A stretch of DNA of 64,000 nt, taken from Bacteroidales bacterium. GTDB taxonomy: Bacteria > Bacteroidota > Bacteroidia > Bacteroidales > UBA10428. The notes below the pieces were generated by a model. The model did no database searches. It was not told the origin of the DNA and worked only from the letters and a program-made list of their open reading frames with translations. The translations under genes were made by a program, and so were the position numbers. Location of the stretch: NCBI GenBank assembly GCA_965230395.1, contig CBDDKV010000001.1, positions 654 to 64,653 on the forward strand, given 5' to 3'. Each line of letters begins with the position of its first letter. Position 1 is the stretch's first letter. Positions 10,686-64,000 of the stretch are shown here, one piece after another.

Positions 10686-10689
10686 GGAT

Positions 10690-12046: not shown

Positions 12047-12246
12047 AACACTTGGTGTTTGGTTACCTATTAAAACAAATTCTTATAGGGGGTTGTTCAG
12101 TTTTTTAACATTATTTGTTTAATGTTGCTTATTCTGTTTCGATAAGCATAAGTGGTTACAAAGACCATATGATTTAAAGAAAAATATGGAGATTTAATTC
12201 TATTATATTAACTTGTCCACTTTATATCCTAACTAAATTATTCAGA

Positions 12247-30301: not shown

Positions 30302-32122
30302 TTATTTTTTTATGAACCTTACTCTCTCGTTCGTTTCTGTCTTTAATATGTAGACTCCGGATTCCAGTTTTGCTATATCAACAACATTACCTTTTCCAGA
30401 TAGCATTTGCTGCCCGGAAATATTATAAATGCTATAGCTAACTGATCCATCTATTCCTATAAGGTTAATGTAATCTGAAGCAGGAACCGGCTTAACCATT
30501 AACTTTGAAGTCTTCTCCAATACTTCTATCTGACCGGTTGCGGATTTTAATTCCCTGCACCTGACTGCTATTCCATTTTCGTCCAAACAACACCCTTCAC
30601 TTGGACAACTTCCGCCGCAGTCGATATGGGTTTCGTCTCCATTCATTATGCCATCATCGCAGGTTGGCTCAGGATAGGTTATAAATGTGCACTGGTCTTT
30701 AGTGAATTCTACCGTTTCAACAGGTGAAAGATATTGACCGGTTGCATTGTCCTGAACTTTAAACTGGATTGTGTACTGGTTTCCAAGCGTTGCACTGAAC
30801 TCTCTCTGATAATATCCCTCTGTAACTGTTCCGGGATAACAGACTCCGTTTAAGCAAACATAATTCCATTCTCCGGTCCATCCTTCGTCTTTATGATAAA
30901 CTTTAACTGTGTTATCATTAACATATGTCACACCAAATACCCCGCATGTTCCAGGTTCAGTGCATATATCAGGGCACGATCCCCCACAGTCTATACCTTC
31001 TTCATCACCATTCTGTATACCATCATCACAGGTTGGGACAACTGTTGTATCACACTTATCCGGACAAGATCCACCGCAATCGATACCTTCTTCATCACCA
31101 TTCTGAATACCGTCATTACAGGTTGGGGCAATATTATCTCCATAATGAACATATCTTGATGTATTCACAATGCTGTTCCAGTGTTTTAGTACGGTTGAGT
31201 TAGCTTCTACTCTTGAATCGCCCCAGTCACCTGTCCAGTTATGGGCATTCCAGTCTGAATTTATATATGCCCAAACACCTACGTCGTAAGTATCAATAAT
31301 GTCCCGTACACGATTAAGGTAATCAATAAACCCTTCGGGGGTTTCTGAAGCATATCTTTGAACAGCTGATTCTGCTATCATTACGGGCTTATGCTTTGTG
31401 TTAACTGCCCAGTCGAATGCTTTTTCAAGGTTTCCGTCGATTTTTCCGCTACAATTTGAACCTGATGGCGATGAAAGGCAAACATCGTGATTAAAAACGG
31501 AGAGGGCTACCCAGTCAACATATTCATCACCTGGATACAGATCGACTACATCGTTAAATCCCCGCACGGGGTGATACACAAATTCAACGTTTCCGGCGAT
31601 TGCCTTTATACGTCTGGCCATGCGGTTATATGCGTCTTTATATGTCTGAGAGTCGCCTCCTGAAGCAAACATATACAGGCTCACTTCGTAACCGAGGCGA
31701 ACAAAGAATTTTAGGTCTGAATGTGCTGCAAATGTTTGTGCAAACTGGTCTATTTGTGCATCCCATTTGCCGGCAGCAATATCTTTCAGAGCACTGTATG
31801 TGTTGCCATACCCCCCTGCTCCCGGATTATCTTTAATGCTAATTGCCACCAAAGCATAGGCTCCCGGGTATGTATTGTTTACGTAGGTTAAAAAGTTGTT
31901 GCCAAAAGCATCATCTCCCTGGTTTATTTCGCCTTTGTAGATTTCTCCGTAATGTGATGATCCTGCGGGAGGTTTTACTGCATTGACATAGTTCTGAAAT
32001 TCCTGCTGCCATGTCTGACCAATTAAAAGAAGTGTTTTTCCCTTTCCGGGATTATATTGTGCTGTTGCTGATAAACAAAAGGCAACGAATAATAAGATGG
32101 GTAGAAATATTTTTGTTTTCAT
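30302..32122 (-). CDS. T9SS-secreted glycoside hydrolase, type B. Domain order: GH26-like lineage B catalytic domain, 2 Cys-rich mini-modules, X domain, 1 mini-module, CTD
   Basis: 606 aa with a signal peptide ending ATAQ. Motifs: [57 protein letters not shown]...WGDSRVE. Mini-module example: PTCNDGIQNGDEEGIDCGGSCPDKC. The tail ends ...SGVYILKTETNERVRFIKK. Confidence 0.88.
   Translation of the reverse strand: MKTKIFLPILLFVAFCLSATAQYNPGKGKTLLLIGQTWQQEFQNYVNAVKPPAGSSHYGEIYKGEINQGDDAFGNNFLTYVNNTYPGAYALVAISIKDNPGAGGYGNTYSALKDIAAGKWDAQIDQFAQTFAAHSDLKFFVRLGYEVSLYMFASGGDSQTYKDAYNRMARRIKAIAGNVEFVYHPVRGFNDVVDLYPGDEYVDWVALSVFNHDVCLSSPSGSNCSGKIDGNLEKAFDWAVNTKHKPVMIAESAVQRYASETPEGFIDYLNRVRDIIDTYDVGVWAYINSDWNAHNWTGDWGDSRVEANSTVLKHWNSIVNTSRYVHYGDNIAPTCNDGIQNGDEEGIDCGGSCPDKCDTTVVPTCDDGIQNGDEEGIDCGGSCPDICTEPGTCGVFGVTYVNDNTVKVYHKDEGWTGEWNYVCLNGVCYPGTVTEGYYQREFSATLGNQYTIQFKVQDNATGQYLSPVETVEFTKDQCTFITYPEPTCDDGIMNGDETHIDCGGSCPSEGCCLDENGIAVRCRELKSATGQIEVLEKTSKLMVKPVPASDYINLIGIDGSVSYSIYNISGQQMLSGKGNVVDIAKLESGVYILKTETNERVRFIKK
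30590..31130 (-). repeat. Cys-rich mini-module / X-domain block (coding)
   Basis: Three copies of the C.DG[IV].NGDE.[GH][IV]DCGG[SP]C motif flank one ~95-aa Cys-capped domain (GTCGVFGVTYVNDNTVKVYHKDEGW...FTKDQCTF). Confidence 0.8.
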
Positions 32123-43243: not shown

Positions 43244-46063
43244 TTATTGTTTAATAAACCTTACTCTCTCGTTTGTTTGTGTTTTCAGCAAATAAATTCC
43301 GGATTCCAGGTTTGCTATGTCAATAACATTCCCTTTTCCTGTCATGATTTTTATCCCGGAAAGGCTGTAAACACTGTAATTAACTGATTCTCCTATACCA
43401 ACCAGGGTAATAAAGTCTGATGCCGGAACTGGTTTAACGAATATTTTAGAGACCTTGCTTATTTCGTTTGTATGACTTGCATTTTTAGACTTCAATTCGG
43501 CGCTGAATGTACACTTGTCTTTTGTGAACGTAGCTTTTTTCTCAGGAGAAACGTATTGTCCCGATCCATCGTCTTGAACTTTAAACTGTATGGTGTACTC
43601 GTCACCTAATGTAGCTGTAAATGTTTTCTTATAATATCCATCTGAAAGATCCCCCTGAACACAGCTGTTATCAAGGCAGATATAATTCCAGTTTCCTGTC
43701 CAACCTTTATCTTTGTGATAGACCAATACTGTGTTATCATCCTGGTAAGTCATACCAAATTCTTCACAAGTTCCGGGTTCAGGACATATTTTGTCGCAGG
43801 AGCCACCACAGTCAATTCCTTCTTCGTCTCCATTCTGAATTCCGTCACTACAAGTTGGTTCAGTACTGCATGAATCCGGACAGCTTCCTCCACAGTCAAT
43901 ACCCGTTTCATCGCCATTCAAAATTCCATCATCACAGGTTGGTTCTGCCGGACATGAATCCGGACAACTTCCGCCGCAGTCGATACCGGTCTCGTCGCCA
44001 TTCTGTATACCATCGTTACAAGCGGGGCCATTTATTTGAACAAAAGTGCAGCTTTCTTCAGTAAATGTTACCGTTTCTTCAGGAGATAAATATTGTCCTT
44101 CTGCTTCGTCCTGAACTTTAAACTGTATTTTATAATTCTGACCAAGTGTTGCTGTAAAATCCTGATAGTAATAGCCATCCTGTTTAACTCCTTCCTGACA
44201 ATATCCATCAACACACAGGTAATTCCATGTTGCCGACCAGCCTTTGTCAATATGATATACCCGAATGGTATTGTCATTGACATAAGAGGCGCCAAAGTCT
44301 TTACATGTTCCTGAACCAGGACAACCTTTTGGACATGATCCACCACAATCAACACCTTCCTCATCGCCATTCTGAATACCATCGTAACAGGTTGGCTCGG
44401 GACACTGGTTTGGACATGACCCGCCGCAGTCTATGCCTTCTTCATCTCCGTTCTTCACGCCATCGTCGCAGGTTGGCTCAGGCATATTGCCATCCCAAAG
44501 TACAGAAAACAAATCGGTGCTTCCCTGAAGGAACAATTTTCTTCCGTCTTTTTCCAATGTCTGCTTGTCCATTTCCTGCATCCACCACTTTTGAATCTCT
44601 GGATTTGATTCTATGCGGCTGTCTCCCCAAATGTCTCCCCACATAGCTTGTTTGTTCCATTCGGTGTTTATATAGGAGAATGCACGGATTACATCGGTGT
44701 TTGAATAAATGAGGTCGAATATTCCGGCAAACCAGGCATCCCATATATAGCGTGCACTTACCTTGGTATGAGAGCTTCCATTGGTTGCATATGAATCTTC
44801 TGCAGAGATATCGTAATACTCCGGAGTTGATTCACAAATCATCATTGGTTTATTATGGTCTCGCGAAAATTTTAAGATATTATCAAAAGGTGCTGTATTG
44901 TAAACAAAGTATGAACATCCTGTCCAATCCACATAATCGTCGCCCGGATACCAGTTTTCAATTGCAGTGGGAGAATTTCCGTATGTTGCCGATTGCCATA
45001 CATACGCTACATTTTCTACCTTCATCCCTCTCCAGTAATCAACTAAATACTTAAATGTCTGTACATATTCACCGGCTGAATAAGAGTTCCACGAACCATC
45101 GAATTCATAACCTATCCGGAGGTATACAGGCGTTGGACTAACTTGCTTAAAGAAATTTCCCAGTTCTTCCACATATTGATCCATTGAACCGGCATTGATG
45201 CTCCCCAGTGAGCCTACAAGGTACAACCCTACCTGTAGTGCCGAATTGGGATAGTCATATACAGTTCTCTCCACATGAATGGCTCCGGCACCATAGTCAA
45301 CATCGTCTGAAGCAAGCGGTGGGTTATCAGAAACTTTATTTAAACCGTACAAGCCATATAAAACCCATGGCTGGTTATTATTTGCAATATCTGTGTATTG
45401 GGTAACTCCACCGGGGGTTGAAATTACATTTCCTGTGTATCCTTCAATTCCGTCTAAATCCTGTCCGATTATTTGAAGCACCTGTCCATCGGGAGGGGTG
45501 AATTTTCCTTTTATGTAAGTTTCCGGGGCCAGATAAGTTTTTCCACTGTCTGCGGGCTCTTCTCCAACAAACTGAGGGTATAACTGAGCGGCCGGAACTA
45601 TCTCTCTTGTCTGTTGATCACTGCTCCATTCCAGACGTATAGATGCTTCACCCCCATCTTCTTTATACTGACAAACGATATGGTACTGTTTTCCAGCTGT
45701 TAAGGAATACTTACCCCTAAATTCTGTAGCCGGATTTGTTCCCCAACGATTGATTATGGTTTGTCCGTTTATACGTAAACGAACTCCATCATCAGCTGTA
45801 GCATAAAAAGTGTACATACCACTATAACGGGGAGTAATCATTCCTGACCATTGCACCGTAAAATTATCGGGGCCTATGCCAATCGGTCCACTGGTGCCCC
45901 AGTTGAAATTAATGGTCGGATCGGTTTGGGTATGATCCGGGGCCCCCGTAAGGGCCAGGTTGTTAAAGTACTCTCCTTTTAACCCTTCTTCCTGAGCCAA
46001 CAAGGCAATACTCATTAATACAGCCAATGTTATAAACATGACTTTTTTACAAAAAGTTTTCAT
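43244..46063 (-). CDS. T9SS-secreted glycoside hydrolase, type C. Domain order: PA14, GH26-like lineage C catalytic domain, 2 mini-modules, X, 3 mini-modules, X, CTD
   Basis: 939 aa with a signal peptide ending LLAQ. PA14 motif: GLKGEYFNN...FTVQWSGMITPRYSGMYTFYATADDGVRLRINGQ. Catalytic motifs: [56 protein letters not shown]...WGDSRIE. The tail ends ...SGIYLLKTQTNERVRFIKQ. Confidence 0.88.
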   Translation of the reverse strand: MKTFCKKVMFITLAVLMSIALLAQEEGLKGEYFNNLALTGAPDHTQTDPTINFNWGTSGPIGIGPDNFTVQWSGMITPRYSGMYTFYATADDGVRLRINGQTIINRWGTNPATEFRGKYSLTAGKQYHIVCQYKEDGGEASIRLEWSSDQQTREIVPAAQLYPQFVGEEPADSGKTYLAPETYIKGKFTPPDGQVLQIIGQDLDGIEGYTGNVISTPGGVTQYTDIANNNQPWVLYGLYGLNKVSDNPPLASDDVDYGAGAIHVERTVYDYPNSALQVGLYLVGSLGSINAGSMDQYVEELGNFFKQVSPTPVYLRIGYEFDGSWNSYSAGEYVQTFKYLVDYWRGMKVENVAYVWQSATYGNSPTAIENWYPGDDYVDWTGCSYFVYNTAPFDNILKFSRDHNKPMMICESTPEYYDISAEDSYATNGSSHTKVSARYIWDAWFAGIFDLIYSNTDVIRAFSYINTEWNKQAMWGDIWGDSRIESNPEIQKWWMQEMDKQTLEKDGRKLFLQGSTDLFSVLWDGNMPEPTCDDGVKNGDEEGIDCGGSCPNQCPEPTCYDGIQNGDEEGVDCGGSCPKGCPGSGTCKDFGASYVNDNTIRVYHIDKGWSATWNYLCVDGYCQEGVKQDGYYYQDFTATLGQNYKIQFKVQDEAEGQYLSPEETVTFTEESCTFVQINGPACNDGIQNGDETGIDCGGSCPDSCPAEPTCDDGILNGDETGIDCGGSCPDSCSTEPTCSDGIQNGDEEGIDCGGSCDKICPEPGTCEEFGMTYQDDNTVLVYHKDKGWTGNWNYICLDNSCVQGDLSDGYYKKTFTATLGDEYTIQFKVQDDGSGQYVSPEKKATFTKDKCTFSAELKSKNASHTNEISKVSKIFVKPVPASDFITLVGIGESVNYSVYSLSGIKIMTGKGNVIDIANLESGIYLLKTQTNERVRFIKQ
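43505..44480 (-). repeat. Cys-rich mini-module / X-domain block (coding)
   Basis: Five mini-modules (e.g. PTCDDGVKNGDEEGIDCGGSCPNQC) and two X domains. Confidence 0.8.
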
Positions 46064-53400: not shown

Positions 53401-53901
53401 GCGGTTGTAGGCATTTATATATGCCTGTGTGTCACCGCCGGGGGCAAACATGTAAAGGCTCACCTCGTAGCCTAAACGGACGTAGAACTTTAGGTTTGAA
53501 TGATCGGCAAACGTTTGGGCAATCTTGTCGATTTGTGTGTCAAGGTTTCCTGAATTAATGGCCTGCAATGCACTGTACGTGTCCCCAAAACCGCCTGCCC
53601 CAGGGTTGTCCTTGATGCTTATTGCTATTAATGCATAAGCCCCCGGGTAGGTGTTGTTCATGTAGGTCAGGAAACCGTTTCCAAACGCATCGTTGCCCTG
53701 GTTAATTTCCCCGGAGTAAATTTCTCCATAATGGGAAGAGCCCCCAGGGGGCTTAACACCGCTTACATAGTCCTGGAATTCCTGCTGCCAGGTTTGGCCG
53801 ATTAACAAAACGGTTTTTCCCGATCCCGGATCGTACTTTTGTGCCGCCAATGTATAGCATAATGCCAACATTAGCACAGACAAAAAGGTTTTTGTTTTCA
53901 T
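50416..53901 (-). CDS. T9SS-secreted enzyme with two catalytic domains. Domain order: GH26-like lineage B, mini-modules/X/mini-modules/X/mini-modules, GH26-like lineage C, CTD
   Basis: 1161 aa with a signal peptide ending LAAQ. Lineage B motifs: [50 protein letters not shown]. Lineage C motifs: LLSIGQDL, YLRIGFEFDGKWN, WWPGDDYVDWLGLSWF, VMIAESTPQGYD. The tail ends ...PGMYILTTDENQRVRFIKN. Confidence 0.9.
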   Translation of the reverse strand: MKTKTFLSVLMLALCYTLAAQKYDPGSGKTVLLIGQTWQQEFQDYVSGVKPPGGSSHYGEIYSGEINQGNDAFGNGFLTYMNNTYPGAYALIAISIKDNPGAGGFGDTYSALQAINSGNLDTQIDKIAQTFADHSNLKFYVRLGYEVSLYMFAPGGDTQAYINAYNRMAKRIRAIAKNVDFVYHPVRGFNDTRDLYPGDEYVDFVGFSVFNNDICLECNGTFNCQGSQVDPNLQQSMDFAKQKGKPIIIAESAVQSPAAASVSGFNDYLDRLFAVVENNDVRALAYINSDWNSHGWGPEWGDSRVEKNSAVLSHWNSYVNKPRYIHYNGSTAPSCSDGIKNQGETGIDCGGPCPACTNGPTCSDGIQNGDEEGVDCGGSCPNSCGTSGTCKEFGVSYVNDNTIRVYHKDNGWSAQWQYVCLDGYCVAGEKKDGYYYKDFKAALGQQYTIQFKAEDNATGQYLSPEEKVTFTKEKCSFVVNDADPTCTDGVQNGGETGVDCGGPCPACTTGPTCSDGIQNGDETGIDCGGSCPNSCAAVGEGNCGEFGISHVNDNTVRVYHKDNGWSASWQYVCLDGYCVTGEKKDGYYYKDFDAALGQQYEIQFKAQDNATGQYLSPVEKVTFTKDKCSFTGGTEPTCTDGIQNGDETGVDCGGSCPNACSTGPTCNDGVQNGDETGVDCGGSCPPCGNGNDPLSGAKLLPPGKKILLSIGQDLKTEQDYINGGVNQKGFPVPGAVVSYNSFHTLEEPTYPQYGALGEAPDGTPYNNDINWGAGPLNARNAADGYPESALVIALNIADGGDPGDVWCSGCISQIGGGAYDTEIKALAAFCKRRPNEPIYLRIGFEFDGKWNLGYSNTGAFKSAWRRIVDVMRGEGVNNVAYVWQSCASPIDDILEKKHENIQDWWPGDDYVDWLGLSWFMLPGEKPLVSGYDPHTQKQLADEVVSLARSKKKPVMIAESTPQGYDLTELKNCHMSPIWDGDAATGCVSKSAGQIWDEWFVPYFDYIYANKDVIRHVTYINVNWEDDTDKFGPGSNYAEGYWGRAGVHVNSTIANNWKTEITKSVWMHGGDNNNSGSLKSINAKASALTSVSNAGKIGISPVPATDEIILTGVDATVQYKIYTVTGMQVEAGQGTTIDVNKLKPGMYILTTDENQRVRFIKN
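51840..52910 (-). repeat. Cys-rich mini-module / X-domain block (coding)
   Basis: Six mini-modules and two near-identical X domains (G[TN]C.EFG[VI]S[YH]VNDNT[IV]RVYHKDNGWSA.WQYVCLDGYCV.GEKKDGYYYKDF...). Confidence 0.8.
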
Positions 53902-54077: not shown

Positions 54078-57000
54078 TTATTCCTTAATGAATTTTACCC
54101 TTTGATTAGAATTTGTGATTAAAATATATAATCCTGCATCTATATTGGATATATCTACTACTTTACCTTTACTGTTTATAACATTTACGCCTGAAATGTT
54201 ATAGATTGAGTAAGATGTATTTTCATCAATACCTCCAATGTATAATTTACCAGAGGCCGGGTTAGGATATACGTTAACTGTGTTTGCCAAAGAATATGAA
54301 CTTTGAGAAGCTTTGAAGTTTTCTTTCATTCCAGGGGTACGTGATCCACCACTGTATACATTGATTTCTGCTATTGCATAAACCTTACCACCGCCTACAG
54401 CTCCTACTTCAAATTCGAAGTCATCGCTAAATACGCCGGCTCCTGAAGGTAATGTGTAGTTATAGTTAAATGTAACAACATCTCCATCTTTAACACCCTG
54501 AACGGTATATGGCTGGCCCGGAGTTGTCGGGTAGCTTCCCTTATCGGTTCCGTTTACAATAATTTTAAGGTAACAGAAGCCTTTAGCAATACCTTCTACC
54601 AATGGTTCAAAAGTTATTGTTGGCGCTGAACCACCCTGACTGGTAACAACTGCTTTAAAGTTTCCGCTTCCATCAACAAAGTCGCTAGTGGTTCCATTGC
54701 TTTCTGTGCCATAAACACGCATGTACCGGCCTGTAAGTTCACTATTATAAGAAACTTCACCTCCTTTTGCCCCAGTCTCAGAAGCTATGGTTTGAACGGT
54801 AGTAAAATCTCTATCGTTAGATACCTGTACTTCGTAAGCTGTAGCAAAGTAGCTTGAATGCCATGTTATGTCTACCTGGTCGAATTTAACTTCGCTTCCA
54901 AAATCCATAGCTAACCATTGTGGATTATCGCTTTCCTGACTAACCCAGCTTGTTGCTACATCGTTATCAACAACATTATAAGGATCTTCAACTTCTGAAG
55001 AAGCCCAAATTGTAGCATCTTGTCCTATTTCTGGTACTACATGAATCACAACATCATCAGTAACTACGTTTCCATCATTGTCGGTTACTGCTAATGTTAT
55101 AGTATGTGCCCCAACAGTAAGTACAGCTTCGGCAACTTCGCCAGTAGCTATCGTATTGTTGGCTTCTGTCCAAACCCACGATGTTATTTCACCAACAGCA
55201 TCGAAACTTCCCGAACCATCCAGGGTTACTGTTTCTGAACCATTTCCATCTACATCAGTAACAATCTGGTCTTCGCCAGCTTTTGCAACAGGCTCGCCAG
55301 CAGTTACAAATACTTCAATTGTTCTTGTTTTAACTTTACCTTCACTTGTTGTAATTGAAAGCTCAATAGAATGTGTCCCGTTCGCAAGGGTTACATTAGC
55401 TGTCATCCCTGAAGCTGCGTTTTCGCCGTCAACTTTCCATGAATAGTTTGTAATTGAGCCTGTTGGGTGGCTTGAACATGAGGCATCAAGCATTACATTT
55501 TCACTACCGTTTTTATCTTCATCAATAATTATTTCTTCGTTTGCTGGTGACTTAATACATGCGTAACCATCGATAGACTGAGTTTCTGCTACCAATTCAC
55601 CAGCAGGAACAGCGATAACAGTTCCATTAGAGAATTCAACAACTATTTCAGATGCAGTTGGGTTGTATGCAACGTAAGTTAAATCGGAACCTTCTCCGAA
55701 TACTGCGTACGAAGGTGTGTTTGCTGTAATATCCGAACGGTATGGTCCCATTGCTGCCATATTATGTATCCAGTGATAATAATGAGGGGCCGTTTCGCTT
55801 GGTGGACTGGGCTCTGTTTCCCCATGAGGCTGAGTTTTGTAATATCCCAATGCCCTTTGTGGATCAGCTAATGCTAAATACTCCCAGAAAAGTTCGTTCC
55901 ATCTGTTAACACTTCCGTACTTATTAATAAACCAATCGATAAGTTTTGTTTTAACATACTCCGGGTTACGGGCTAAGTAAGTTGAAGCAGCTGTCATTGG
56001 AAGTAGGTTAATACCTACAGGGTATTCCTGATAACCTGTTTGCTCACTTCCAAACCAGGTCGAAAAGTCTGATTTATCACCAAACACAAAACCTGACATT
56101 GGATATAAATAGTCGGCTTCGTAACCAAAAATTGCATGTTCTTTATTTCCGAAATCTTTACCTTTTGGATATGTTATTTCATTGTAATCCCACCAGTAAT
56201 TTAATGTTGCGTCAGATTCGGTTGTATATATATAAATTCCTAAATCACGAATTTCTTTGTTACCCGTTTGCATGCCCCAAAGAGCAACTGCTGAAGCATA
56301 GTTTAATGCCTCTGAACTTGATTCCTGGTTGTTTCCATCACGGAAATCTGCATCTCCAGTTGCCCAGGAAAATCCTTGATATGGGCTCATGAACCGTAAT
56401 GGAGGGAACATTGGGTCATCTCTTTTCCAGTTATTGGTATACTTTATAAGGTTCTCAACTCTACCACCCCAATCTTTTGCCCATTGAGGGTTGTATTTAG
56501 CAAGAATAGCTGCTGCTTTTATCATGTATCCCATTTGAAAGTGTGCATCGTTTAAGTGCGCATCACTAAACATCCCGCTTTCCGGTGGAATACCTATAAG
56601 GGCTCCATAATTTGAATCGTAGTAAAAATAAACTTTGTCCCCATCCTCATAGGTTAACCAGTCTTCTAAATTTCTTCTGACCCATGCAAGAAGGGTATCA
56701 CGTTGTTCTGTTAATCCAACCTGGTCTGCTATGTCAATAACCTGAGCTGTTCTTCCCAATGTTACACCAGTAGCATATACTGTATTGCCCTGGAACACAT
56801 TATTACCTTCTCCAGCTGCAATTACTTCATCAACTTTTGCTATTAGTTCCTCGTCGCTATATCCACTTTCCTCTGTAGCGACCAATGGAAATGCGGGCAG
56901 AACACCGTAGTACTTCAATTCCGTCTCAAAAACACCACCTTCGGCTTCTATTAGTTTCATGTCTCCCCTGGCAGAGTTGAATTTAATATCGTGCGGCGCA

Positions 57001-57998
57001 AGGCTACCTTTATAGTTTAACCACTGGTGCGGATATAATGCATAAAGCAGTTTATTTCCAGCGTCTTCTTTTTGCTCAAATGTTGCAGTAAACGTTGTTT
57101 TTACAAGCGCATTTTGCTCATCGTATACCCAATCTACTTTTGTATCGGTAATTATGTTATATGCAAATTTGTTTAAATATTTTATATCCGCTATTTTCTT
57201 GTTAATGTCAATATTATCAGGAATATTAGCTACAGAAAAGTAATCTTTGCCTGCCAGGTCTGACGTTAAAGTAATTTTACCTTCTGAATCTGTTGTATAG
57301 GACCATGTTGAGCCTGTTGGTGCATATAATGCATAACTATCTTTCCAGTCTACCCATTGTGATCCCCAGTCATCGTAAAACCTGATAGTTACCTCAACGG
57401 CGATCACATTTCCTTCGTTATACCATACGGTAGAAGGAAGCTTGGTCTTCACCATTATCCCATTATTGGATGTAAAATTCACAAATGGATTACCGTTAGA
57501 AGTGTATGTAACTAATGCTCCATTGTCCTGCGAAATTTTTATTCCCCAATCTGAGTACGCATCAACTTTAGGTTCTCCTGCCGTTCCACTAAGCGTTGTT
57601 ACAATAAGTGCATCAGATGCCTCATGAACATGCCTAAAGTGGGGGTTTGCAGGGCCTGCATTGTAAACAAAGCGCAAGTTCATTGCCGTAAGGCTGGGTC
57701 CACCGCTTCCTTTGTCTACATGAACACACATGGGATCGGCAATAAGGCTAATCATGTTAGGATAGTCGCCATCAGACCAGTTATTTCCATCGAAGTAAAG
57801 GTTTGAATACCAGCTATGGGTATTAAAAGGAGCCTTCATATTACCCGTATAACGAACCGGAGAGACCGGTAAGTTTGCTCCTGAAGAATTGTCTGTTGAA
57901 TAAGGCTCCCCTGTTGGTTGAGAGTAGCCATAATTCATTGTTAATGTAATGAGTACCATTAGGGTACCCACTAATTTGATCGTTTTTAGTTTTCCCAT
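54078..57998 (-). CDS. T9SS-secreted GH81 endo-beta-1,3-glucanase. Domain order: GH81, 2 PKD, discoidin with nested insert, CTD
   Basis: 1306 aa with a signal peptide ending GYSQ. GH81 core signature: LNDAHFQMGYMIKAAAILA...FPPLRFMSPYQGFSWATG...DGNNQESSSEALNYASAVALWG (~56290-56335). PKD motif: VTLDGSGSFDAVGEITSWVW. Discoidin motif: VVDNDVATSWVS...GRYMRVYG. The tail ends ...AGLYILITNSNQRVKFIKE. Confidence 0.92.
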   Translation of the reverse strand: MGKLKTIKLVGTLMVLITLTMNYGYSQPTGEPYSTDNSSGANLPVSPVRYTGNMKAPFNTHSWYSNLYFDGNNWSDGDYPNMISLIADPMCVHVDKGSGGPSLTAMNLRFVYNAGPANPHFRHVHEASDALIVTTLSGTAGEPKVDAYSDWGIKISQDNGALVTYTSNGNPFVNFTSNNGIMVKTKLPSTVWYNEGNVIAVEVTIRFYDDWGSQWVDWKDSYALYAPTGSTWSYTTDSEGKITLTSDLAGKDYFSVANIPDNIDINKKIADIKYLNKFAYNIITDTKVDWVYDEQNALVKTTFTATFEQKEDAGNKLLYALYPHQWLNYKGSLAPHDIKFNSARGDMKLIEAEGGVFETELKYYGVLPAFPLVATEESGYSDEELIAKVDEVIAAGEGNNVFQGNTVYATGVTLGRTAQVIDIADQVGLTEQRDTLLAWVRRNLEDWLTYEDGDKVYFYYDSNYGALIGIPPESGMFSDAHLNDAHFQMGYMIKAAAILAKYNPQWAKDWGGRVENLIKYTNNWKRDDPMFPPLRFMSPYQGFSWATGDADFRDGNNQESSSEALNYASAVALWGMQTGNKEIRDLGIYIYTTESDATLNYWWDYNEITYPKGKDFGNKEHAIFGYEADYLYPMSGFVFGDKSDFSTWFGSEQTGYQEYPVGINLLPMTAASTYLARNPEYVKTKLIDWFINKYGSVNRWNELFWEYLALADPQRALGYYKTQPHGETEPSPPSETAPHYYHWIHNMAAMGPYRSDITANTPSYAVFGEGSDLTYVAYNPTASEIVVEFSNGTVIAVPAGELVAETQSIDGYACIKSPANEEIIIDEDKNGSENVMLDASCSSHPTGSITNYSWKVDGENAASGMTANVTLANGTHSIELSITTSEGKVKTRTIEVFVTAGEPVAKAGEDQIVTDVDGNGSETVTLDGSGSFDAVGEITSWVWTEANNTIATGEVAEAVLTVGAHTITLAVTDNDGNVVTDDVVIHVVPEIGQDATIWASSEVEDPYNVVDNDVATSWVSQESDNPQWLAMDFGSEVKFDQVDITWHSSYFATAYEVQVSNDRDFTTVQTIASETGAKGGEVSYNSELTGRYMRVYGTESNGTTSDFVDGSGNFKAVVTSQGGSAPTITFEPLVEGIAKGFCYLKIIVNGTDKGSYPTTPGQPYTVQGVKDGDVVTFNYNYTLPSGAGVFSDDFEFEVGAVGGGKVYAIAEINVYSGGSRTPGMKENFKASQSSYSLANTVNVYPNPASGKLYIGGIDENTSYSIYNISGVNVINSKGKVVDISNIDAGLYILITNSNQRVKFIKE

Positions 57999-58625: not shown

Positions 58626-61600
58626 TTATTCCTTAATGAACTTAATTATATCATTGGAACCTGTTCTCAAGAAATACATGCCTGATGCAAGATTTTTTAT
58701 ATCGACAACTTGACTGTTATCGGTAAATACTGCTTTACCTGCAAAATTGTAGACGGTATAATATTCGTTTTTATCTAAACCGGTAATGTTAAGAACTGTA
58801 TTAACCGGGTTAGGATATACGGATACTTTGCTTTCTCTTTGAACTGTAGCTGCCGTTGTTATGTTTTCAGCGTTTTTGGTCCTTGCAGCCAACAACTGAC
58901 TGTTTAGGTTGCCAGAACCATGCATCCAAACATCTTTGGCCATTTCGGTATTCCACTTATTTTTAATTGATGAAGTAGCCTGTAAGCGGGCATCTCCCCA
59001 ATATCCTTCGTTGTAGTCTGGAGGTCCGAATTTAGGCTGGTCCTCCCAGTCGGCGTTAATGTAATGTACACACCTGATTACATCTTTATTGCTATAGATA
59101 TAATTGAAATACGGAGTAAACCATTCATCCCAGATTTGAGATTCTGTTTTTGCAACTGCATTTTGAGCAGCATCTCCGTCCCAAACAGGAGAAATGTTTT
59201 TATTTTGCCCTGCTTCCAAATCATATCCTTGTGGTGTTGATTCTGCAACCATCACCGGTTTTCCTTTACTTCTCGCAAATTGTACTAGTTCATCGGCCAA
59301 TTCCTTTTGTGTATGTGTGTGATAGCTTGAAGCTGTAGGTTGCTCGTTTGGCAGAAGGAACCATGAAAGTCCTACCCAGTCTACATAGTTGTCGCCAGGG
59401 TACCAGTCCTGAATGTTTTCATGTCCGTTCTCAATTACATCGTCCGTTGGGCTTGCGCTCGACTGCCATACCCAGGCTACATTGTTTACTCCCTGGTTTC
59501 TAACACCGTCAACAATATTTCTGTATGCCTCTTGATACCACTCCTTTTTAGCAACAGGGTCATCTCCATTGTTAAGGTCGAAGTATCCAATGTTCCAGTT
59601 TCCATCGAATTCGAAGCCTAAGCGGATATAAATAGCCGTATTAGCGTATTTTTTACAGAATCTCGCGATGGCATCTATTTCAGCCTGCCATTCCGTAGGG
59701 TTTTCTGCTAATCTACGAACACCCTGCTCATGCCAGTAATAAATAGAACCGTCAGAGTTCCAGACTCCTTCAGCAAGGTTTAATCCAATAATAAGTGCCG
59801 AGTTTTCATATCCGGTTACAGACCATGCTGTATGAATAGGTCCTGCATCCCAATAAACTTCGTCATCAAGAACATCTCCGCTGGTGTTTATTCCAAGGCC
59901 TCCGTAAGGGACTCCACCCTGTGTGGCACACTCGTAGAATGCTACATAAGAAGTAATCGCACCTGGTTCGGGAAAGTCTGTTTCGGGTTGTCCATGTTTA
60001 CCGGCATATTGCGCTACAGAAGTTAAATCCTGACCAACCGAGAACAGAATTTTTTGTCCGGGAGGCAATAGTTTTGCTCCGGCAACAGGATCATCAGGAC
60101 AAATATTTGGACAAGAACCACCGCAATCAACGCCTTTTTCATCGCCGTTCATAATTCCATCGTCACAGGTAGGTTCCGGACACGCGGGGCAAGAACCGCC
60201 ACAATCAACGTCTGTCTCGTCGCCGTTCATAATTCCATCGTTACAGGTAGGTTCTGTTACACATGCAGGACATGAACCACCACAGTCTACATCTGTCTCA
60301 TCGCCGTTTTTGATACCGTCGTTACAGGTAGGCTCTGTTCCACCCACGAATGAACACTTATCGGTAGTAAATTCAACCGTTTTCTCGGGTGAAATATACT
60401 GGCTGATATCATTATCCTGGGCCTTGAATTGTATTTTGTACTGTTGGCCAAGGGTAGCACTAAAATCTTTGTAGTAATAGCCATCTTTTTTCTCGCCAGC
60501 ATAACATCCCCCGTCAACACATACATACTGCCATTGAGCTGACCATCCGTTGTCTTTATGATAAACTCTCATTGTTGTATTATCAACATAGCTTACGCCA
60601 AATTCACCACAAGAACCACTAGTTGAACCACAACTGTTCGGGCATGAACCGCCACAATCTACTCCGGTCTCATCTCCGTTCTTGATTCCATCAGTACAGG
60701 TAGGTTCTGGCTCACACGCCGGACATGAACCACCACAATCAACGCCTGTCTCATCACCGTTTTTGATTCCATCGTTACAGGTAGGCTCTGTTACACATGC
60801 AGGACATGAACCACCGCAGTCTACACCCGTCTCATCGCCATTTTTGATGCCGTCGTTACAGGTAGGCTCTGTTCCACCTACAAATGAACACTTATCGGTA
60901 GTGAATTCAACCGTTTCCTCTGCTGAAATATACTGGCTGATAGCGTCGTCCTGGGCCTTAAACTGTATTTTATATTGTTGACCAAGGGTAGCACTAAAAT
61001 CTCTGTAATAGTATCCATCCTTTTTCTCTCCGGAATAACACCCCCCGTCAACACATACATACTGCCATTGAGCTGACCATCCGTTGTCTTTATGATAAAC
61101 TCTCATTGTATTATCATCTACATAGCTTATGCCAAATTCACCGCATGAACCGCCTGTTGAACCGCAACTGTTCGGACATGAACCACCGCAATCAACGCCG
61201 GTTTCATCGCCATTCATAATTCCATCATCACAGGTTGGTTCATTTGTACAGGACGGACATGGTCCGCCACAATCTACTCCGGTTTCACCCTGATTTTTAA
61301 TCCCATCGTTACAGGTAGGATCAGGAAGTGTGCTTCCACTATGCAGGTATCTCGTTCCTTCTCCGAATGTAGACACCCAGTGACTTTTAACGGTTGAATT
61401 TACTTCAACCCGTGAATCTGTCCAGTTACCATCTTTCCAACCTTTAGCCGGCCAGTCAGAATTAATATATGCCAATACTCTTACATCGTTATTTACAACA
61501 ACATTATGCAAGCGGTTCAGGTAATCTTTAAACTCTGACGCTGGTGGTGTTTGTGAAGAGGTTGACTGAAAAGCCGATTCCGCTATGATAATAGATTTAC

Positions 61601-62465
61601 CATGCTCTTTTGCAAAATCCATACTTTTCTGTAATTCAGGGTCAACTTCCTTACCTTCACAGTTAGCTACTCCGTTACACTCTATACAGACATCATTATT
61701 GAAAATAGAGAATCCGAAGAAATCTACATAATTATCTCCGGGATAAAGCCATTTTGTGTCGTTAAAGCCGCGTACAGGGTGGTAAACCAAATCAACATTG
61801 TCGGTTTCTGCCCTTACGATATCAGCAATACGTTTGTATGCATTGATATATGCGTAAATATCCAAATCCGCCACTTTTGTCGGATCTTCGAATACGTTTA
61901 TTCCTGCATTTGCTTGTTGTTCAAGCCATGTTTGAGCATCTGTCTCTTCTCCTTTGTAAGCAAACCCGAACATGCTTACTTCGTATCCAATTCTCAGATA
62001 GAATTTCACATCGGGCCTGTCACCCATTATTTTTGCAAATGATTTAATCTTGTCGTCCAGTTTACCATTTTCAATCGCCTTACAGGCTTCCCATATGGCA
62101 TTTGAATTAAAGTCAGGTTTGGTTGGATCCATTTGACCAAAACCTCCTGCGGCAGGATTGTCCTTAATACTTAGGGCTACCAATGCATAATTGTCATCCT
62201 GTACAGAACGAACGTAATCTAAAAATTCATTATTTGCGCCGTCATCCCCTTGTTCAATGGTTCCCCAGTATACCGTCCCATAATGGGAACTTCCGGCGGG
62301 CGCTTTTCCTATTCCGTTTACATATGCTTTATATTCATCTTCATAGGTTTGCCCTATTAACAATACGGTCTTTCCCGTTCCCGGGTCGTATTTCTGGGCA
62401 GTAATGTGATTTGTGATCAGAAATGTAGTTAGTAGTGTTAAAAACAAATAAAATCTTCTCCTCAT
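58626..62465 (-). CDS. T9SS-secreted enzyme with two catalytic domains. Domain order: GH26-like lineage B, long mini-module/X array, GH26-like lineage C, CTD
   Basis: 1279 aa with a signal peptide ending ITAQ. Lineage B motifs: VLLIGQTYEDEY, YLRIGYEVSMFGF, LYPGDNYVDFFGFSIF, IIIAESAFQ. Lineage C motifs: LFSVGQDL, YIRLGFEFDGNWN, WYPGDNYVDWVGLSWF, VMVAESTPQGYD. The tail ends ...SGMYFLRTGSNDIIKFIKE. Confidence 0.9.
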   Translation of the reverse strand: MRRRFYLFLTLLTTFLITNHITAQKYDPGTGKTVLLIGQTYEDEYKAYVNGIGKAPAGSSHYGTVYWGTIEQGDDGANNEFLDYVRSVQDDNYALVALSIKDNPAAGGFGQMDPTKPDFNSNAIWEACKAIENGKLDDKIKSFAKIMGDRPDVKFYLRIGYEVSMFGFAYKGEETDAQTWLEQQANAGINVFEDPTKVADLDIYAYINAYKRIADIVRAETDNVDLVYHPVRGFNDTKWLYPGDNYVDFFGFSIFNNDVCIECNGVANCEGKEVDPELQKSMDFAKEHGKSIIIAESAFQSTSSQTPPASEFKDYLNRLHNVVVNNDVRVLAYINSDWPAKGWKDGNWTDSRVEVNSTVKSHWVSTFGEGTRYLHSGSTLPDPTCNDGIKNQGETGVDCGGPCPSCTNEPTCDDGIMNGDETGVDCGGSCPNSCGSTGGSCGEFGISYVDDNTMRVYHKDNGWSAQWQYVCVDGGCYSGEKKDGYYYRDFSATLGQQYKIQFKAQDDAISQYISAEETVEFTTDKCSFVGGTEPTCNDGIKNGDETGVDCGGSCPACVTEPTCNDGIKNGDETGVDCGGSCPACEPEPTCTDGIKNGDETGVDCGGSCPNSCGSTSGSCGEFGVSYVDNTTMRVYHKDNGWSAQWQYVCVDGGCYAGEKKDGYYYKDFSATLGQQYKIQFKAQDNDISQYISPEKTVEFTTDKCSFVGGTEPTCNDGIKNGDETDVDCGGSCPACVTEPTCNDGIMNGDETDVDCGGSCPACPEPTCDDGIMNGDEKGVDCGGSCPNICPDDPVAGAKLLPPGQKILFSVGQDLTSVAQYAGKHGQPETDFPEPGAITSYVAFYECATQGGVPYGGLGINTSGDVLDDEVYWDAGPIHTAWSVTGYENSALIIGLNLAEGVWNSDGSIYYWHEQGVRRLAENPTEWQAEIDAIARFCKKYANTAIYIRLGFEFDGNWNIGYFDLNNGDDPVAKKEWYQEAYRNIVDGVRNQGVNNVAWVWQSSASPTDDVIENGHENIQDWYPGDNYVDWVGLSWFLLPNEQPTASSYHTHTQKELADELVQFARSKGKPVMVAESTPQGYDLEAGQNKNISPVWDGDAAQNAVAKTESQIWDEWFTPYFNYIYSNKDVIRCVHYINADWEDQPKFGPPDYNEGYWGDARLQATSSIKNKWNTEMAKDVWMHGSGNLNSQLLAARTKNAENITTAATVQRESKVSVYPNPVNTVLNITGLDKNEYYTVYNFAGKAVFTDNSQVVDIKNLASGMYFLRTGSNDIIKFIKE
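60100..61325 (-). repeat. Cys-rich mini-module / X-domain block with an internal 534-bp tandem duplication (coding)
   Basis: Eight mini-modules and two X domains. The antisense artefact ORFs starting at 60526 and 61060 are near-identical, which gives the 534-bp period. Confidence 0.8.
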
Positions 62466-63090: not shown

Positions 63091-64000
63091 TTATTTCTTA
63101 ATAAACTTAACTGTTTCGTTTGATTTAGTTTTTAAGAAATACATTCCTGCTCCAAGGTTAGTCAGGTTAAGTTCTGCTTTCTTATCTTTAAGAACAGCTT
63201 TACCTGCGAAGTTGTAAATAGTATATTCTTCGTTTTTCTCTAAACCTTTAATACTAATTACATCGTTTACAGGATTAGGATAAACAGAAATTCTGCTTTC
63301 CTGAACAGTAGTATAAGTTACATCAGAAGTATTGTCGCCACTCTTCTTAGAAGACAACAGGTTAGCATTTGTATTTGACGAACCATGCATCCAAACACTT
63401 TTGCTAAGTTCTGATTTCCAGTTTCCTGCAATCTGGTCGTTAACATGAACTCCGGCTCTACCCCAGTATCCTTCTCTGTAATCACTTTCACTACCAAAGT
63501 TATAGGTATCATCGTCCCAGTTAACATTGATATAAGTTACATGACGAATTACGTCTTTGTTTGAGTAGATATAGTCGAAATAAGGTGTGAACCATTCGTT
63601 CCAGATTTGTGAAGCACTTTTGCTAACACATCCCTGACCGGCAGCACCGTCCCAAAGGGTACTAATGTTACAGTTTTTCATTTCAACTAAATCATAACCT
63701 TGTGGAGTTGACTCAGCAACTAGTACAGGCTTGTTCTTTCTTCTTGCAAGATTTACTATTTCATCAGCAAGTTGTTTTTGAGTTTTAGGATTGTAACCAG
63801 CAGCTGTTGGTTTTTCGTTTGGTAACAAGAACCATGAAAGACCTAACCAGTCTACGTAGTTATCACCAGGCCACCAGTCTTCAACATTTTCATTAGCTTC
63901 ATCAAGAATTTCATCAATAGGAGAAGCACAAGACTGCCATACATAAGCAACATTATTTACACCTTCGCCGCGCATTACATCAACAATTCTTCTCCATGCA
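63091..64000 (-). CDS. T9SS-secreted glycoside hydrolase: C-terminal part only (GH26-like lineage C + CTD). The 5' end lies outside the window
   Basis: The frame stays open to nt 64000 (AWRRIVDVMRGEGVNNVAYVWQS...), matching the lineage C domain of 50416..53901 by eye. Motifs: WWPGDNYVDWLGLSWF, VLVAESTPQGYD. The tail is YPNPVNDVISI...AGMYFLKTKSNETVKFIKK. Confidence 0.88.
   Translation of the reverse strand, partial: AWRRIVDVMRGEGVNNVAYVWQSCASPIDEILDEANENVEDWWPGDNYVDWLGLSWFLLPNEKPTAAGYNPKTQKQLADEIVNLARRKNKPVLVAESTPQGYDLVEMKNCNISTLWDGAAGQGCVSKSASQIWNEWFTPYFDYIYSNKDVIRHVTYINVNWDDDTYNFGSESDYREGYWGRAGVHVNDQIAGNWKSELSKSVWMHGSSNTNANLLSSKKSGDNTSDVTYTTVQESRISVYPNPVNDVISIKGLEKNEEYTIYNFAGKAVLKDKKAELNLTNLGAGMYFLKTKSNETVKFIKK

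What the first reader, a model, noticed from the sequence alone, without database searches (positions are those of the whole stretch)
60100..61325. Arrays of ~25-aa four-Cys mini-modules (C.DG..NGDE.G.DCGG.C...C) bracketing a Cys-capped ~95-aa X domain
Four genes share this block (30590-31130, 43505-44480, 51840-52910, 60100-61325). They contain 3, 5, 6 and 8 copies of P[TS]C.DG[IV].N[GQ][DG]E.G[IV]DCGG[SP]CP..C, arranged in runs of 1-3 around one or two copies of a beta-sandwich-like domain that starts G.C.[EV]FG and ends K.[KQ]C[ST]F (…VYHKD.GW…W.YVC[LV][DN]G.C…GYY…F.A.LGQ.Y.IQFK.QD…). The acidic N-G-D-E core flanked by cysteines resembles disintegrin or LNR-type Ca/disulfide knots. I cannot match it to a named bacterial CBM or linker family. 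In the two-catalytic-domain enzymes the block acts as the spacer between the two domains.
Basis: seen in the sequence. Interest (0 to 1): 0.7.

Follow-up and report, generated by a model that had tools for sequence, protein, structure and literature searches.

The report
Unnamed cysteine spacer repeat around CBM31
Four secreted algal-xylan-degrading enzymes of a marine Bacteroidota bacterium carry the known beta-1,3-xylan-binding module CBM31, joined to its neighbours by a widespread 25-residue four-cysteine repeat that has no name in any database searched and most likely acts as a stiff spacer.

Summary
Four minus-strand genes carry exactly 3, 5, 6 and 8 copies (22 in all) of a 22-23-residue four-Cys module, placed in runs of 1-3 around seven copies of an 88-residue Cys-capped domain.

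The "X domain" is not new. It is CBM31, the beta-1,3-xylan-binding module (Pfam PF11606, E down to 1e-56; the AF2 model superposes on PDB 2cov at TM 0.89). The catalytic domains are GH26, and the C-terminal ones resemble beta-1,3-xylanase XYL4 (E 5e-36). The enzymes are therefore T9SS-secreted GH26-CBM31 beta-1,3-xylanase-type proteins, a known kind.

The mini-module has no family in Pfam or NCBIfam, no relative in the PDB by sequence profile or by fold, and no relation to LNR, LDL-A, disintegrin or MopE repeats. Yet it occurs in more than 8,000 protein clusters (Bacteroidota, Myxococcota and others), next to dozens of unrelated extracellular domains.

It has almost no aromatic residues and a net charge near -4. 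Its copy number differs between a 99%-identical pair of proteins. It sits where gammaproteobacterial homologues have Pro-rich linkers.

Best reading: a disulfide-stapled, possibly Ca2+-binding spacer bead. Moderate interest: an unnamed domain family in a known enzyme architecture.

The parts
58626..62465 (-). Focal gene g58626 (1279 aa): signal peptide, divergent GH26-like domain, m-m-CBM31-m-m-m-CBM31-m-m-m, GH26 beta-1,3-xylanase-like domain, T9SS C-terminal sorting domain
   Evidence: ORF; translation; Pfam; PDB
61341..62393 (-). N-terminal divergent GH26-like catalytic domain (about aa 25-375). It keeps the RIGYE and IAES motifs.
   Evidence: Pfam Glyco_hydro_26 with 2 stretches. PDB 2ddx E 2.6e-5. 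23% identity over aa 1-376 to the Aliagarivorans GH26 ORF, E 3e-12. Motifs read.
61248..61313 (-). mini-module 1 (CNDGIKNQGETGVDCGGPCPSC)
61164..61232 (-). mini-module 2
60882..61145 (-).
   Evidence: PF11606 E 4e-51 for the whole protein. 2cov E 3e-18. AF2 core pLDDT about 90. Foldseek 2cov TM 0.89, rmsd 1.3 A.
60795..60860 (-). mini-module 3
60714..60779 (-). mini-module 4
60630..60698 (-). mini-module 5
60348..60611 (-). CBM31 copy 2
60261..60326 (-). mini-module 6
60180..60245 (-). mini-module 7
60099..60167 (-). mini-module 8
58905..60083 (-). C-terminal GH26 domain, beta-1,3-xylanase-like (about aa 795-1187). Both catalytic Glu positions of XYL4 align with Glu here.
   Evidence: PDB 2ddx/3vpl E 4.8e-36, alignment shown; Pfam PF02156
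58632..58820 (-). T9SS type A C-terminal sorting domain
   Evidence: PF18962 E 4e-10; TIGR04183
51841..52899 (-). Block m-m-CBM31-m-m-CBM31-m-m of gene 50416-53901 (GH26-like ... GH26, CTD)
43505..44470 (-). Block m-m-CBM31-m-m-m-CBM31 of gene 43244-46063 (PA14, GH26 ... CTD)
30590..31120 (-). Block m-m-CBM31-m of gene 30302-32122 (GH26-like ... CTD)

Best explanation
The four genes encode enzymes that are exported through the Sec pathway and the type IX secretion system and that act on beta-1,3-xylan from green and red algae. Each has one or two GH26-type catalytic domains and one or two CBM31 modules. The CBM31 modules anchor the enzyme to insoluble beta-1,3-xylan.

The 22-23-residue mini-module has the consensus [PA][TS]-C-x-D-G-[IV]-x-N-[GQ]-x-E-T-[GD]-[VI]-D-C-G-G-x(1-2)-C-x(2-3)-C. 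I read it as an independent inter-domain spacer bead, not as part of the CBM and not as a binding module. Its four invariant Cys most likely form two disulfides in the periplasm. Its invariant acidic or amide residues (D, N, E, D) most likely hold the loop together, possibly around a Ca2+ ion. Runs of 1-3 beads, joined by 4-7-residue (E/T)xPT linkers, would take the place of the Gly- or Pro-rich linkers of other beta-1,3-xylanases. That would give a compact, protease-resistant, negatively charged connector whose length changes by gain or loss of whole repeats.

Shown: the identity of CBM31 and GH26; the module's existence, conservation pattern, distribution, domain partners and copy-number variation; and the absence of any named relative.

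Inferred: the disulfides, Ca2+ binding, rigidity and the spacer role.
For: **CBM31 and GH26 identity:**. Known beta-1,3-xylanases are GH26 plus CBM31 or CBM6, joined by Gly-rich linkers (PMC9638140 Table 3; PMC7563424).

**Position.** The modules occupy every domain junction and nothing else does. In the Aliagarivorans and Marinibactrum homologues the same junctions hold (PxDPP)n or (TP)n linkers and no modules.

**Promiscuity.** Exhaustive HMMER finds 8215 clusters at E<=1e-3, some with more than 30 copies by regex count. Partners among 40 of the top hits include Por_Secre_tail, Peptidase_M43, CarboxypepD_reg, GH10, CAP, tyrosinase, fn3, OmpA, LRR and DUF6252. In 81 of 349 proteins that start with Met, the first module lies within 25 aa of a lipobox-like Cys, like a stalk.

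**Conservation.** Over 2316 copies only C, G, D, E and N are conserved, and the other positions vary freely. Aromatic residues make up 0.7% and the net charge is -3.9 per module, which is unlike a sugar-binding face.

**Copy number.**
- P0124, 99% identical to g50416, has one extra in-register module.
- P0390, about 70% identical to g50416 (835 identities over 1198 aligned columns), has three modules where g50416 has two.
- The Saccharicrinis homologues keep m-m before CBM31 but lack the later copies.

**Structure prediction.** AF2 gives small loops with no regular secondary structure (best model pLDDT 79). In the CBM31 unit model the module regions score pLDDT below 50, so that model shows no confident packing onto CBM31, but it cannot exclude it either.

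**Export.** All four proteins have signal peptides and T9SS tails, so they pass through the oxidising periplasm.
Against: - No structure, disulfide map or metal analysis exists.
- Four of the five AF2 models of the triple module had pLDDT about 50.
- The spacer role is argued from position and composition, not from function.
- Two modules always precede CBM31 in the window and in the Saccharicrinis homologues. This regularity could mean that a specific pair works together with the CBM.
- The invariant D/N/E/D set could serve ligand binding rather than structural Ca2+ binding.
- Cys4 sites can bind Zn2+.
Confidence: 0.62

Rival explanations
1. The mini-modules are miniature carbohydrate-binding modules, or extensions of the CBM31 binding site, in the way CBM1, CBM18/hevein or CBM10 are small Cys-rich binders. 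They would add avidity for the algal cell wall.
For: They always flank a CBM in these four genes. Two copies precede CBM31 in every paralogue and in the Saccharicrinis homologues. Some other carriers are glycan-active enzymes or modules (GH10, CBM96, F5/8C).
Against: - There are no conserved aromatic residues (F+W+Y 0.7%).
- The variable positions show no conserved surface.
- Most partner domains have nothing to do with glycans (M43 and M12 peptidases, CAP, tyrosinase, OmpA, LRR, RCC1).
- Arrays of more than 30 copies exist, as do lipoprotein stalks.
- There is no Pfam CBM hit at E<=10.
- The founding CBM31 protein binds beta-1,3-xylan without them (2cov construct; PMC9638140).
Confidence: 0.1
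2. The four Cys of each module coordinate a metal (a Zn2+ or Cu knuckle) rather than forming disulfides, so the arrays are metal-binding or redox elements. The neighbouring genes carry repeats that Pfam calls 'putative metal-binding motif' (MopE-like).
For: The C-x13-C-x3-C-x2-3-C pattern ends in a CxxC-like knuckle. The PF11617 repeats of neighbouring paralogues occupy an equivalent position in front of CBM56.
Against: - The proteins are exported through an oxidising periplasm to the cell surface.
- CBM31 in the same chains has four conserved Cys. From memory of the 2cov paper, these form two disulfides.
- There is no profile similarity to the MopE repeats.
- His is 0.2% of module residues.
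- Extracellular Cys4 zinc sites are rare (general knowledge).
Confidence: 0.08
3. The modules are docking elements for protein-protein assembly, in the way Ca2+-dependent dockerins are. They would tether the enzymes to a cell-surface scaffold or to each other.
For: The acidic, EF-hand-like DG..NGDE stretch. Two homologues combine the module with a cohesin domain (P0156, P0196). The enzymes sit in a large co-directional array and could act as a complex.
Against: - There is no Pfam dockerin hit.
- Tandem arrays of up to dozens of copies, and internal positions between domains, are unlike dockerins.
- T9SS type A tails already provide surface attachment.
- There is no conserved hydrophobic face.
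Confidence: 0.05
4. The modules are functionally neutral repeat expansions. A recombination-prone cassette would have spread because it is tolerated, with no selected property beyond not interfering.
For: Copy-number polymorphism between a 99%-identical pair of proteins. DNA-level repeats 65-89% identical.
Against: Nine or ten positions are conserved at about 90-100% across more than 2300 copies from several phyla. More than 8000 clusters carry the module. Both show strong purifying selection on the fold. Two copies before CBM31 are retained in Saccharicrinis homologues that are 66-75% identical.
Confidence: 0.1

Closest known systems
CBM31 (Pfam PF11606, AlcCBM31; PDB 2cov) in GH26 beta-1,3-xylanases such as TxyA and XYL4 (GH26-CBM31-CBM31)
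   Same: The X domain is a member. It scores above Pfam's gathering cut-off, is 39-42% identical to 2cov, has the same beta-sandwich and the same four Cys positions, and is attached to GH26 domains related to XYL4.
   Different: The proteins are Bacteroidota T9SS cargo. Two of them are bicatalytic (GH26-like ... GH26). The Gly/Pro-rich linkers of the characterised enzymes are replaced by Cys-rich mini-modules.
Small disulfide/Ca2+ repeat modules of extracellular proteins: Notch LNR, LDL-receptor class A, thrombospondin type 3 / bacterial TSP3 repeats
   Same: They are short, Cys- and Asp/Asn/Glu-rich, lack regular secondary structure, occur in tandem between larger domains and are extracellular. 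A DG..[ND] stretch recalls the Ca2+ loops of LDL-A and TSP3.
   Different: The module has four Cys rather than six and is 22-23 residues rather than 35-40. There is no Pfam hit apart from TSP3_bac at E 0.05, below its threshold. hhalign probability is below 1%. There is no fold match.
PF11617 'Cu-binding_MopE' putative metal-binding repeats, present 2-4 times in front of CBM56 in four neighbouring paralogues
   Same: The genomic array, class of protein and architectural position (between the Ig-like or CBM region and a beta-1,3-glycan CBM) are the same. The repeats are also acidic and contain Cys.
   Different: They are 38 residues with 2 Cys and many more Asp. Profile-profile comparison finds no relation.
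Pro/Thr/Gly-rich low-complexity linkers of modular glycoside hydrolases
   Same: Same position and presumed job. Gammaproteobacterial GH26-CBM31 homologues have (PxDPP)n or (TP)n exactly where the modules sit.
   Different: The module is a conserved, probably folded, unit, not low-complexity sequence.
Disintegrin domain
   Same: Cys-rich and extracellular. A G-D-E triplet is superficially similar.
   Different: There is no Pfam hit. hhalign probability against echistatin is 0.2%. The Cys number and spacing differ.

Membership tests
CBM31 (X domain) | Match to Pfam PF11606 above the gathering score (25 bits) | tested here: met
   89-190 bits in the four proteins, profile positions 7-92 of 93
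CBM31 (X domain) | Sequence and fold similarity to the founding structure 2cov (beta-sandwich) | tested here: met
   phmmer E 3.3e-18. AF2 core pLDDT about 90. Foldseek 2cov E 6e-10, TM 0.89, rmsd 1.3 A, 42% identity.
CBM31 (X domain) | Four conserved Cys. From memory of the 2cov paper these form two disulfides. | tested here: inconclusive
   Three Cys positions (YVC..G.C and the C-terminal C) align with Cys of 2cov. The N-terminal Cys lies just outside the printed alignment. All four are invariant among the seven window copies. Disulfide formation itself was not tested.
CBM31 (X domain) | Specific binding to beta-1,3-xylan | not testable with these tools
   Needs a binding assay. The literature states this property for the family (PMC9638140, PMC7563424).
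GH26 beta-1,3-xylanase | GH26 profile match and similarity to a characterised beta-1,3-xylanase | tested here: met
   C-terminal domains: PF02156 above cut-off and 2ddx E 4.8e-36. N-terminal domains are weaker: 2ddx E 2.6e-5 and E 3e-12 to the Aliagarivorans GH26 ORF.
GH26 beta-1,3-xylanase | Two catalytic glutamates (from memory, E138 and E234 of the XYL4 precursor, which are E116 and E212 in 2ddx chain numbering) | tested here: met
   In the alignment both positions are Glu in the query (GFEFDGNWN and MVAESTPQ). The N-terminal domains keep RIGYE and IAES, but they were not aligned residue by residue to a structure.
GH26 beta-1,3-xylanase | Endo-beta-1,3-xylanase activity | not testable with these tools
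   Needs an enzyme assay on Caulerpa or Bryopsis xylan
Notch LNR / LDL-receptor class A / disintegrin (mini-module) | Profile match to the family and its Cys framework (6 Cys for LNR and LDL-A) | tested here: not met
   No Pfam hit at E<=10 for one, two or three modules. The module has 4 Cys.
PF11617 MopE-like / TSP3-type acidic repeats (mini-module) | Profile similarity | tested here: not met
   hhalign A1 against A4 gives probability 0.2%. TSP3_bac E 0.051, 13.9 bits against a cut-off of 25.
Small Cys-rich CBMs (CBM1, CBM10, CBM18) (mini-module) | Profile match and a conserved aromatic binding face | tested here: not met
   No Pfam hit. Aromatic residues are 0.7% of 2126 module copies and none is conserved.
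Any solved structure (mini-module) | Sequence-profile or fold match in the PDB | tested here: not met
   hmmsearch of the module profile against PDB sequences gives only noise at E>3. Foldseek of the AF2 triple-module model gives 0 hits in the PDB and 0 in BFVD. The model is only of moderate quality.
T9SS type A cargo | C-terminal Por_Secre_tail / TIGR04183 domain plus an N-terminal signal peptide | tested here: met
   TIGR04183 scores above its 23-bit cut-off in all four proteins. PF18962 scores above its 27-bit cut-off in g58626 and g30302 and just below it in the other two, at 24.8 and 25.6 bits. Hydrophobic N-termini are visible.

The most novel reading that the evidence does not exclude
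The mini-module is a previously undescribed domain family with its own fold: a two-disulfide, Ca2+-holding knot of about 23 residues. It is used across Bacteroidota, Myxococcota and other phyla as a rigid, length-tunable rod that sets how far surface-attached enzymes and lipoproteins reach from the cell. In these xylanases its strongly acidic, Ca2+-loaded surface may also interact with the algal wall matrix.
Probability: 0.25. Interest if true: 0.6.

Novelty: new variant of a known kind. Interest (0 to 1): 0.4.

Why it matters
The enzyme side is a known kind, GH26 plus CBM31 acting on beta-1,3-xylan. It still adds a Bacteroidota, T9SS-secreted and partly bicatalytic version to a short list of about ten characterised beta-1,3-xylanases, most of them from Gammaproteobacteria.

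The mini-module is the more useful result. It is a sharply conserved 23-residue repeat present in more than 8,000 protein clusters. It is invisible to Pfam and NCBIfam, and neither a sequence-profile search of the PDB nor Foldseek found a structural relative. Long stretches of many secreted bacterial proteins are therefore currently left unannotated.

Defining the module as a family would improve domain boundaries for CAZyme and surface-protein annotation. If it proves to be a stable disulfide/Ca2+ bead, it could serve as a compact, protease-resistant linker for enzyme engineering.

It does not change how beta-1,3-xylan degradation is understood.

Tried and rejected
- **Known family for the module.** Pfam at E<=10 on one, two and three modules gave nothing, and NCBIfam on the full proteins gave nothing. 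All 40 module-rich homologues scanned lacked any shared family that covers the module. The precomputed, newer Pfam labels on proteins made almost only of modules are '-'.
- **Solved structure.** A PDB sequence-profile search returned only noise. Foldseek of the AF2 triple-module model found 0 hits in the PDB and 0 in BFVD.
- **LNR, LDL-A or disintegrin kinship.** Rejected by hhalign.
- **Kinship with the MopE-like repeats of neighbouring genes.** Rejected.
- **Disulfide pairing from natural Cys-loss variants.** Only 6 of about 2300 full-length copies deviate, two of them by moving one Cys, so this was uninformative.
- **Cys pairing or Ca2+ geometry from the AF2 model.** Coordinates are not exposed.
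- **AF2 of mm-mm-CBM31-mm-mm with the shallow 8-row alignment.** The modules scored pLDDT below 50, so the model says nothing about packing beyond showing no confident contact.
- **Literature search for the motif strings** (GVDCGG and similar) and for Cys-rich linkers in Bacteroidetes CAZymes: no relevant paper.
- **Source organism.** The window's proteins are in NCBI and ENA but unnamed. Exact look-ups of encoding contigs failed. The genome is not among the GTDB representatives hit by the CBM31 pattern. The nearest named relatives are Marinilabiliaceae (74% identity for the helicase) and a Saccharicrinis sp. MAG (75% for g43244).
- **One MAFFT run of 71 long proteins** failed internally and was repeated with 40.
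Full report
**1. What is in the sequence**

The window's second half (21-64 kb) is a run of at least twelve co-directional minus-strand genes. All encode large secreted proteins with a type IX secretion C-terminal sorting domain.

A six-frame regex scan finds 22 matches to C.DG..N[GQ][DGE]E.[GDHN].DCGG.C. All are in frame in four of these genes: 30302-32122 (3), 43244-46063 (5), 50416-53901 (6) and 58626-62465 (8). There are none elsewhere in the window.

Each module is 22-23 residues from first to last Cys. Modules are joined to each other and to the flanking domains by 4-8-residue linkers of the type (E/T)xPT. Seven copies of an 88-residue domain that starts C.[EDV]FG and ends C[ST]F lie between them.

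The architectures are:
- GH26-like, m, m, X, m, CTD
- PA14, GH26, m, m, X, m, m, m, X, CTD
- GH26-like, m, m, X, m, m, X, m, m, GH26, CTD
- GH26-like, m, m, X, m, m, m, X, m, m, m, GH26, CTD

In the focal gene the eight modules are 65-88% identical at the DNA level, and a 534-nt unit (modules plus CBM) is duplicated at 89%.

**2. The X domain is CBM31**

Pfam PF11606 (AlcCBM31) matches all seven copies almost end to end. The scores are 89-190 bits per protein against a 25-bit cut-off. phmmer finds the crystal structure 2cov at E 3e-18.

An AF2 model of m-m-X-m-m gives the X core pLDDT of about 90 as a beta-sandwich. Foldseek places 2cov first, with TM 0.89, rmsd 1.3 A and 42% identity.

CBM31 is the characterised beta-1,3-xylan-binding module of GH26 beta-1,3-xylanases. 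Known enzymes are GH26-CBM31, GH26-CBM31-CBM31 and similar (PMC9638140 Table 3; PMC7563424).

**3. The catalytic domains**

The C-terminal domain of the focal protein matches the Vibrio beta-1,3-xylanase XYL4 (2ddx/3vpl) at E 4.8e-36. Glu is present at both positions that, from memory, are the catalytic E138 and E234 of XYL4 (alignment).

The N-terminal domains of three of the genes are divergent GH26 relatives. The evidence is Pfam PF02156, 2ddx at E 2.6e-5 and 23% identity over the whole domain to an Aliagarivorans GH26 ORF at E 3e-12. They keep RIGYE and IAES motifs.

**4. The mini-module has no name**

- One, two or three modules give no Pfam match at E<=10, apart from sub-threshold noise (TSP3_bac at E 0.05). 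NCBIfam gives nothing.
- A 72-sequence module profile finds nothing in PDB sequences.
- An AF2 model of a triple module, built from a 57-row alignment, is loops with isolated beta-bridges. The best model has pLDDT 79, but the other four are near 50. It has no Foldseek hit in the PDB or BFVD.
It also gives less than 1% against the PF11617 MopE-like repeats of the neighbouring genes.
- Text searches for the motif, and for Cys-rich linkers in Bacteroidetes CAZymes, found nothing relevant.

**5. The module is nevertheless very common**

Word-seeded searches returned hundreds of short proteins built largely of these modules. Where they carry a name, they come from Saprospiraceae, Flavobacteriales, Maribacter, Xanthomarina, Sphingobacteriales, Myxococcales/Sorangium/Polyangiaceae and an Altiarchaeota MAG. 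One also has a TSP1 domain.

An exhaustive HMMER search of 1.84 billion representatives found 8215 proteins at E<=1e-3, 3758 at E<=1e-10 and 769 at E<=1e-30. Some hold more than 30 copies by regex count. One of these is a Chitinophagales T9SS protein, and another top hit, with 19 copies, is a Bradymonadia IPT/TIG protein.

Pfam scans of 40 of the top hits found no family shared by all of them, so none covers the module. They did find a wide range of partners: Por_Secre_tail, Peptidase_M43, CarboxypepD_reg, F5/8C, GH10, CAP, tyrosinase, CBM96, fn3, GEVED, OmpA, reprolysin, LRR and DUF6252.

Of 349 homologues with a Met start, 242 have a signal-like N-terminus. In 81 of them the first module lies within 25 residues of a lipobox-like Cys.

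**6. What the module looks like**

Over 2316 full-length copies the four Cys, one Glu, the Asp before the second Cys and the following Gly-Gly are 98-100% conserved. A D-G pair and an Asn are 84-91% conserved. All other positions vary.

Composition is 18% Cys, 20% Gly, 19% Asp+Glu and 0.7% aromatic, with a net charge of -3.9 per module. The spacing is C-x13-C-x3(4)-C-x2(3)-C.

**7. How it most likely works**

The evidence for a spacer or stalk role is as follows.

(a) The modules fill every inter-domain junction in these proteins, and no other linker is present.

(b) Gammaproteobacterial GH26-CBM31 homologues have (PxDPP)n or (TP)n repeats at the same junctions and no modules. Characterised enzymes have Gly-rich linkers.

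(c) The module combines with unrelated domains and forms lipoprotein stalks and very long arrays.

(d) Only structural residue types are conserved and there is no aromatic face.

(e) Copy number changes quickly:
- A 99%-identical variant of g50416 has one extra in-register module.
- A roughly 70%-identical homologue (835 identities over 1198 aligned columns) has three modules where g50416 has two.
- The Saccharicrinis homologues, 75% and 66% identical, lack the distal copies.

(f) Neighbouring paralogues put a different acidic Cys repeat (PF11617) in the equivalent position before CBM56.

Because the proteins cross the oxidising periplasm, two disulfides per module are the natural reading. The invariant D/N/E/D set suggests a bound Ca2+, as in LNR, LDL-A or TSP3 repeats. 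Both points are inference.

Rival readings, each rated at 0.1 or lower:
- mini-CBM
- Zn or Cu site
- dockerin-like docking element
- neutral repeat expansion

**8. Comparison with what is known, and novelty**

X is a member of CBM31. The enzymes are new members of the GH26 beta-1,3-xylanase kind, in a Bacteroidota T9SS and partly bicatalytic format.

The mini-module works like the small disulfide/Ca2+ repeats of extracellular proteins, but it fails every membership test for them. It appears to be an undescribed family. Overall this is a new variant of a known kind.

The organism is an unnamed Bacteroidota, probably Marinilabiliales.

**9. Limits**

- There are no coordinates, disulfide data or metal data.
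- The AF2 support for the module is moderate and comes from one model of five.
- InterPro, HHpred and CAZy could not be queried.
- Taxonomy is known only for the minority of hits that carry a name.

Noticed in passing
window 21261-64000, minus strand: At least twelve co-directional genes for T9SS-tailed glycoside hydrolases. Six are paralogues (21261, 25846, 32202, 35227, 39207, 46166) with a divergent GH26-like N-domain, PKD, F5/8C or CBM6, and CBM56. One is a GH81 (54078-57998). Four are the GH26/CBM31 genes. The set looks dedicated to beta-1,3-glucan and beta-1,3-xylan. No SusC/SusD pair is present in the window.
   Followed up: partly
window 25846-29937, 32202-35135, 39207-42770, 46166-50326 (for example aa 1028-1194 of the last): Two to four 38-residue PF11617 'Cu-binding_MopE' repeats (DxDxDGY...DC.D...INPGA.EI.DN.IDE.CDG) sit directly in front of CBM56. 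This mirrors the way the mini-modules flank CBM31. hhalign shows the two repeat types are unrelated.
   Followed up: yes
window 63091-63975, minus strand: This ORF is the 3' part (GH26 C-terminal half plus T9SS tail) of a further gene closely similar to the C-terminus of g50416. Its 5' part, which possibly holds more mini-modules and CBM31 copies, lies beyond the window end.
   Followed up: no
about aa 330-620 of the six paralogues (for example window 23583-24452 in gene 21261-25442): A conserved stretch of about 270-290 residues between the GH26-like domain and the first PKD domain has no Pfam hit at E<=0.01.
   Followed up: no
P0124 compared with window 50416-53901: A 99%-identical protein from another assembly has exactly one extra mini-module (28 aa, in register) after the second CBM31. 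This is a copy-number polymorphism between near-identical proteins from two assemblies.
   Followed up: yes
AF2 model of window 60714-61325 (CBM31 unit): After 2cov, the best structural match of the CBM31 model is CBM56 (5t7a, E 1.7e-4, TM 0.64), the beta-1,3-glucan module used by the neighbouring paralogues. Insect beta-1,3-glucan recognition domains come next.
   Followed up: no
homologues P0007, P0049, P0053, P0098, P0109, P0180 (Myxococcota-type): In these proteins the mini-module alternates with a second Cys motif of about 22 residues (G..C....DC.S..C..G.C) that is absent from the window proteins.
   Followed up: no
homologue P0008: Two mini-modules are followed by a thrombospondin type 1 (PF00090) repeat, which hints that the module also occurs in eukaryotes.
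   Followed up: no
window 9993-15956: Carotenoid genes (lycopene cyclase 9993-10685, phytoene synthase 11210-12046, phytoene desaturase-like 14472-15956) are interrupted by a plus-strand GH3 gene (12247-14475).
   Followed up: no
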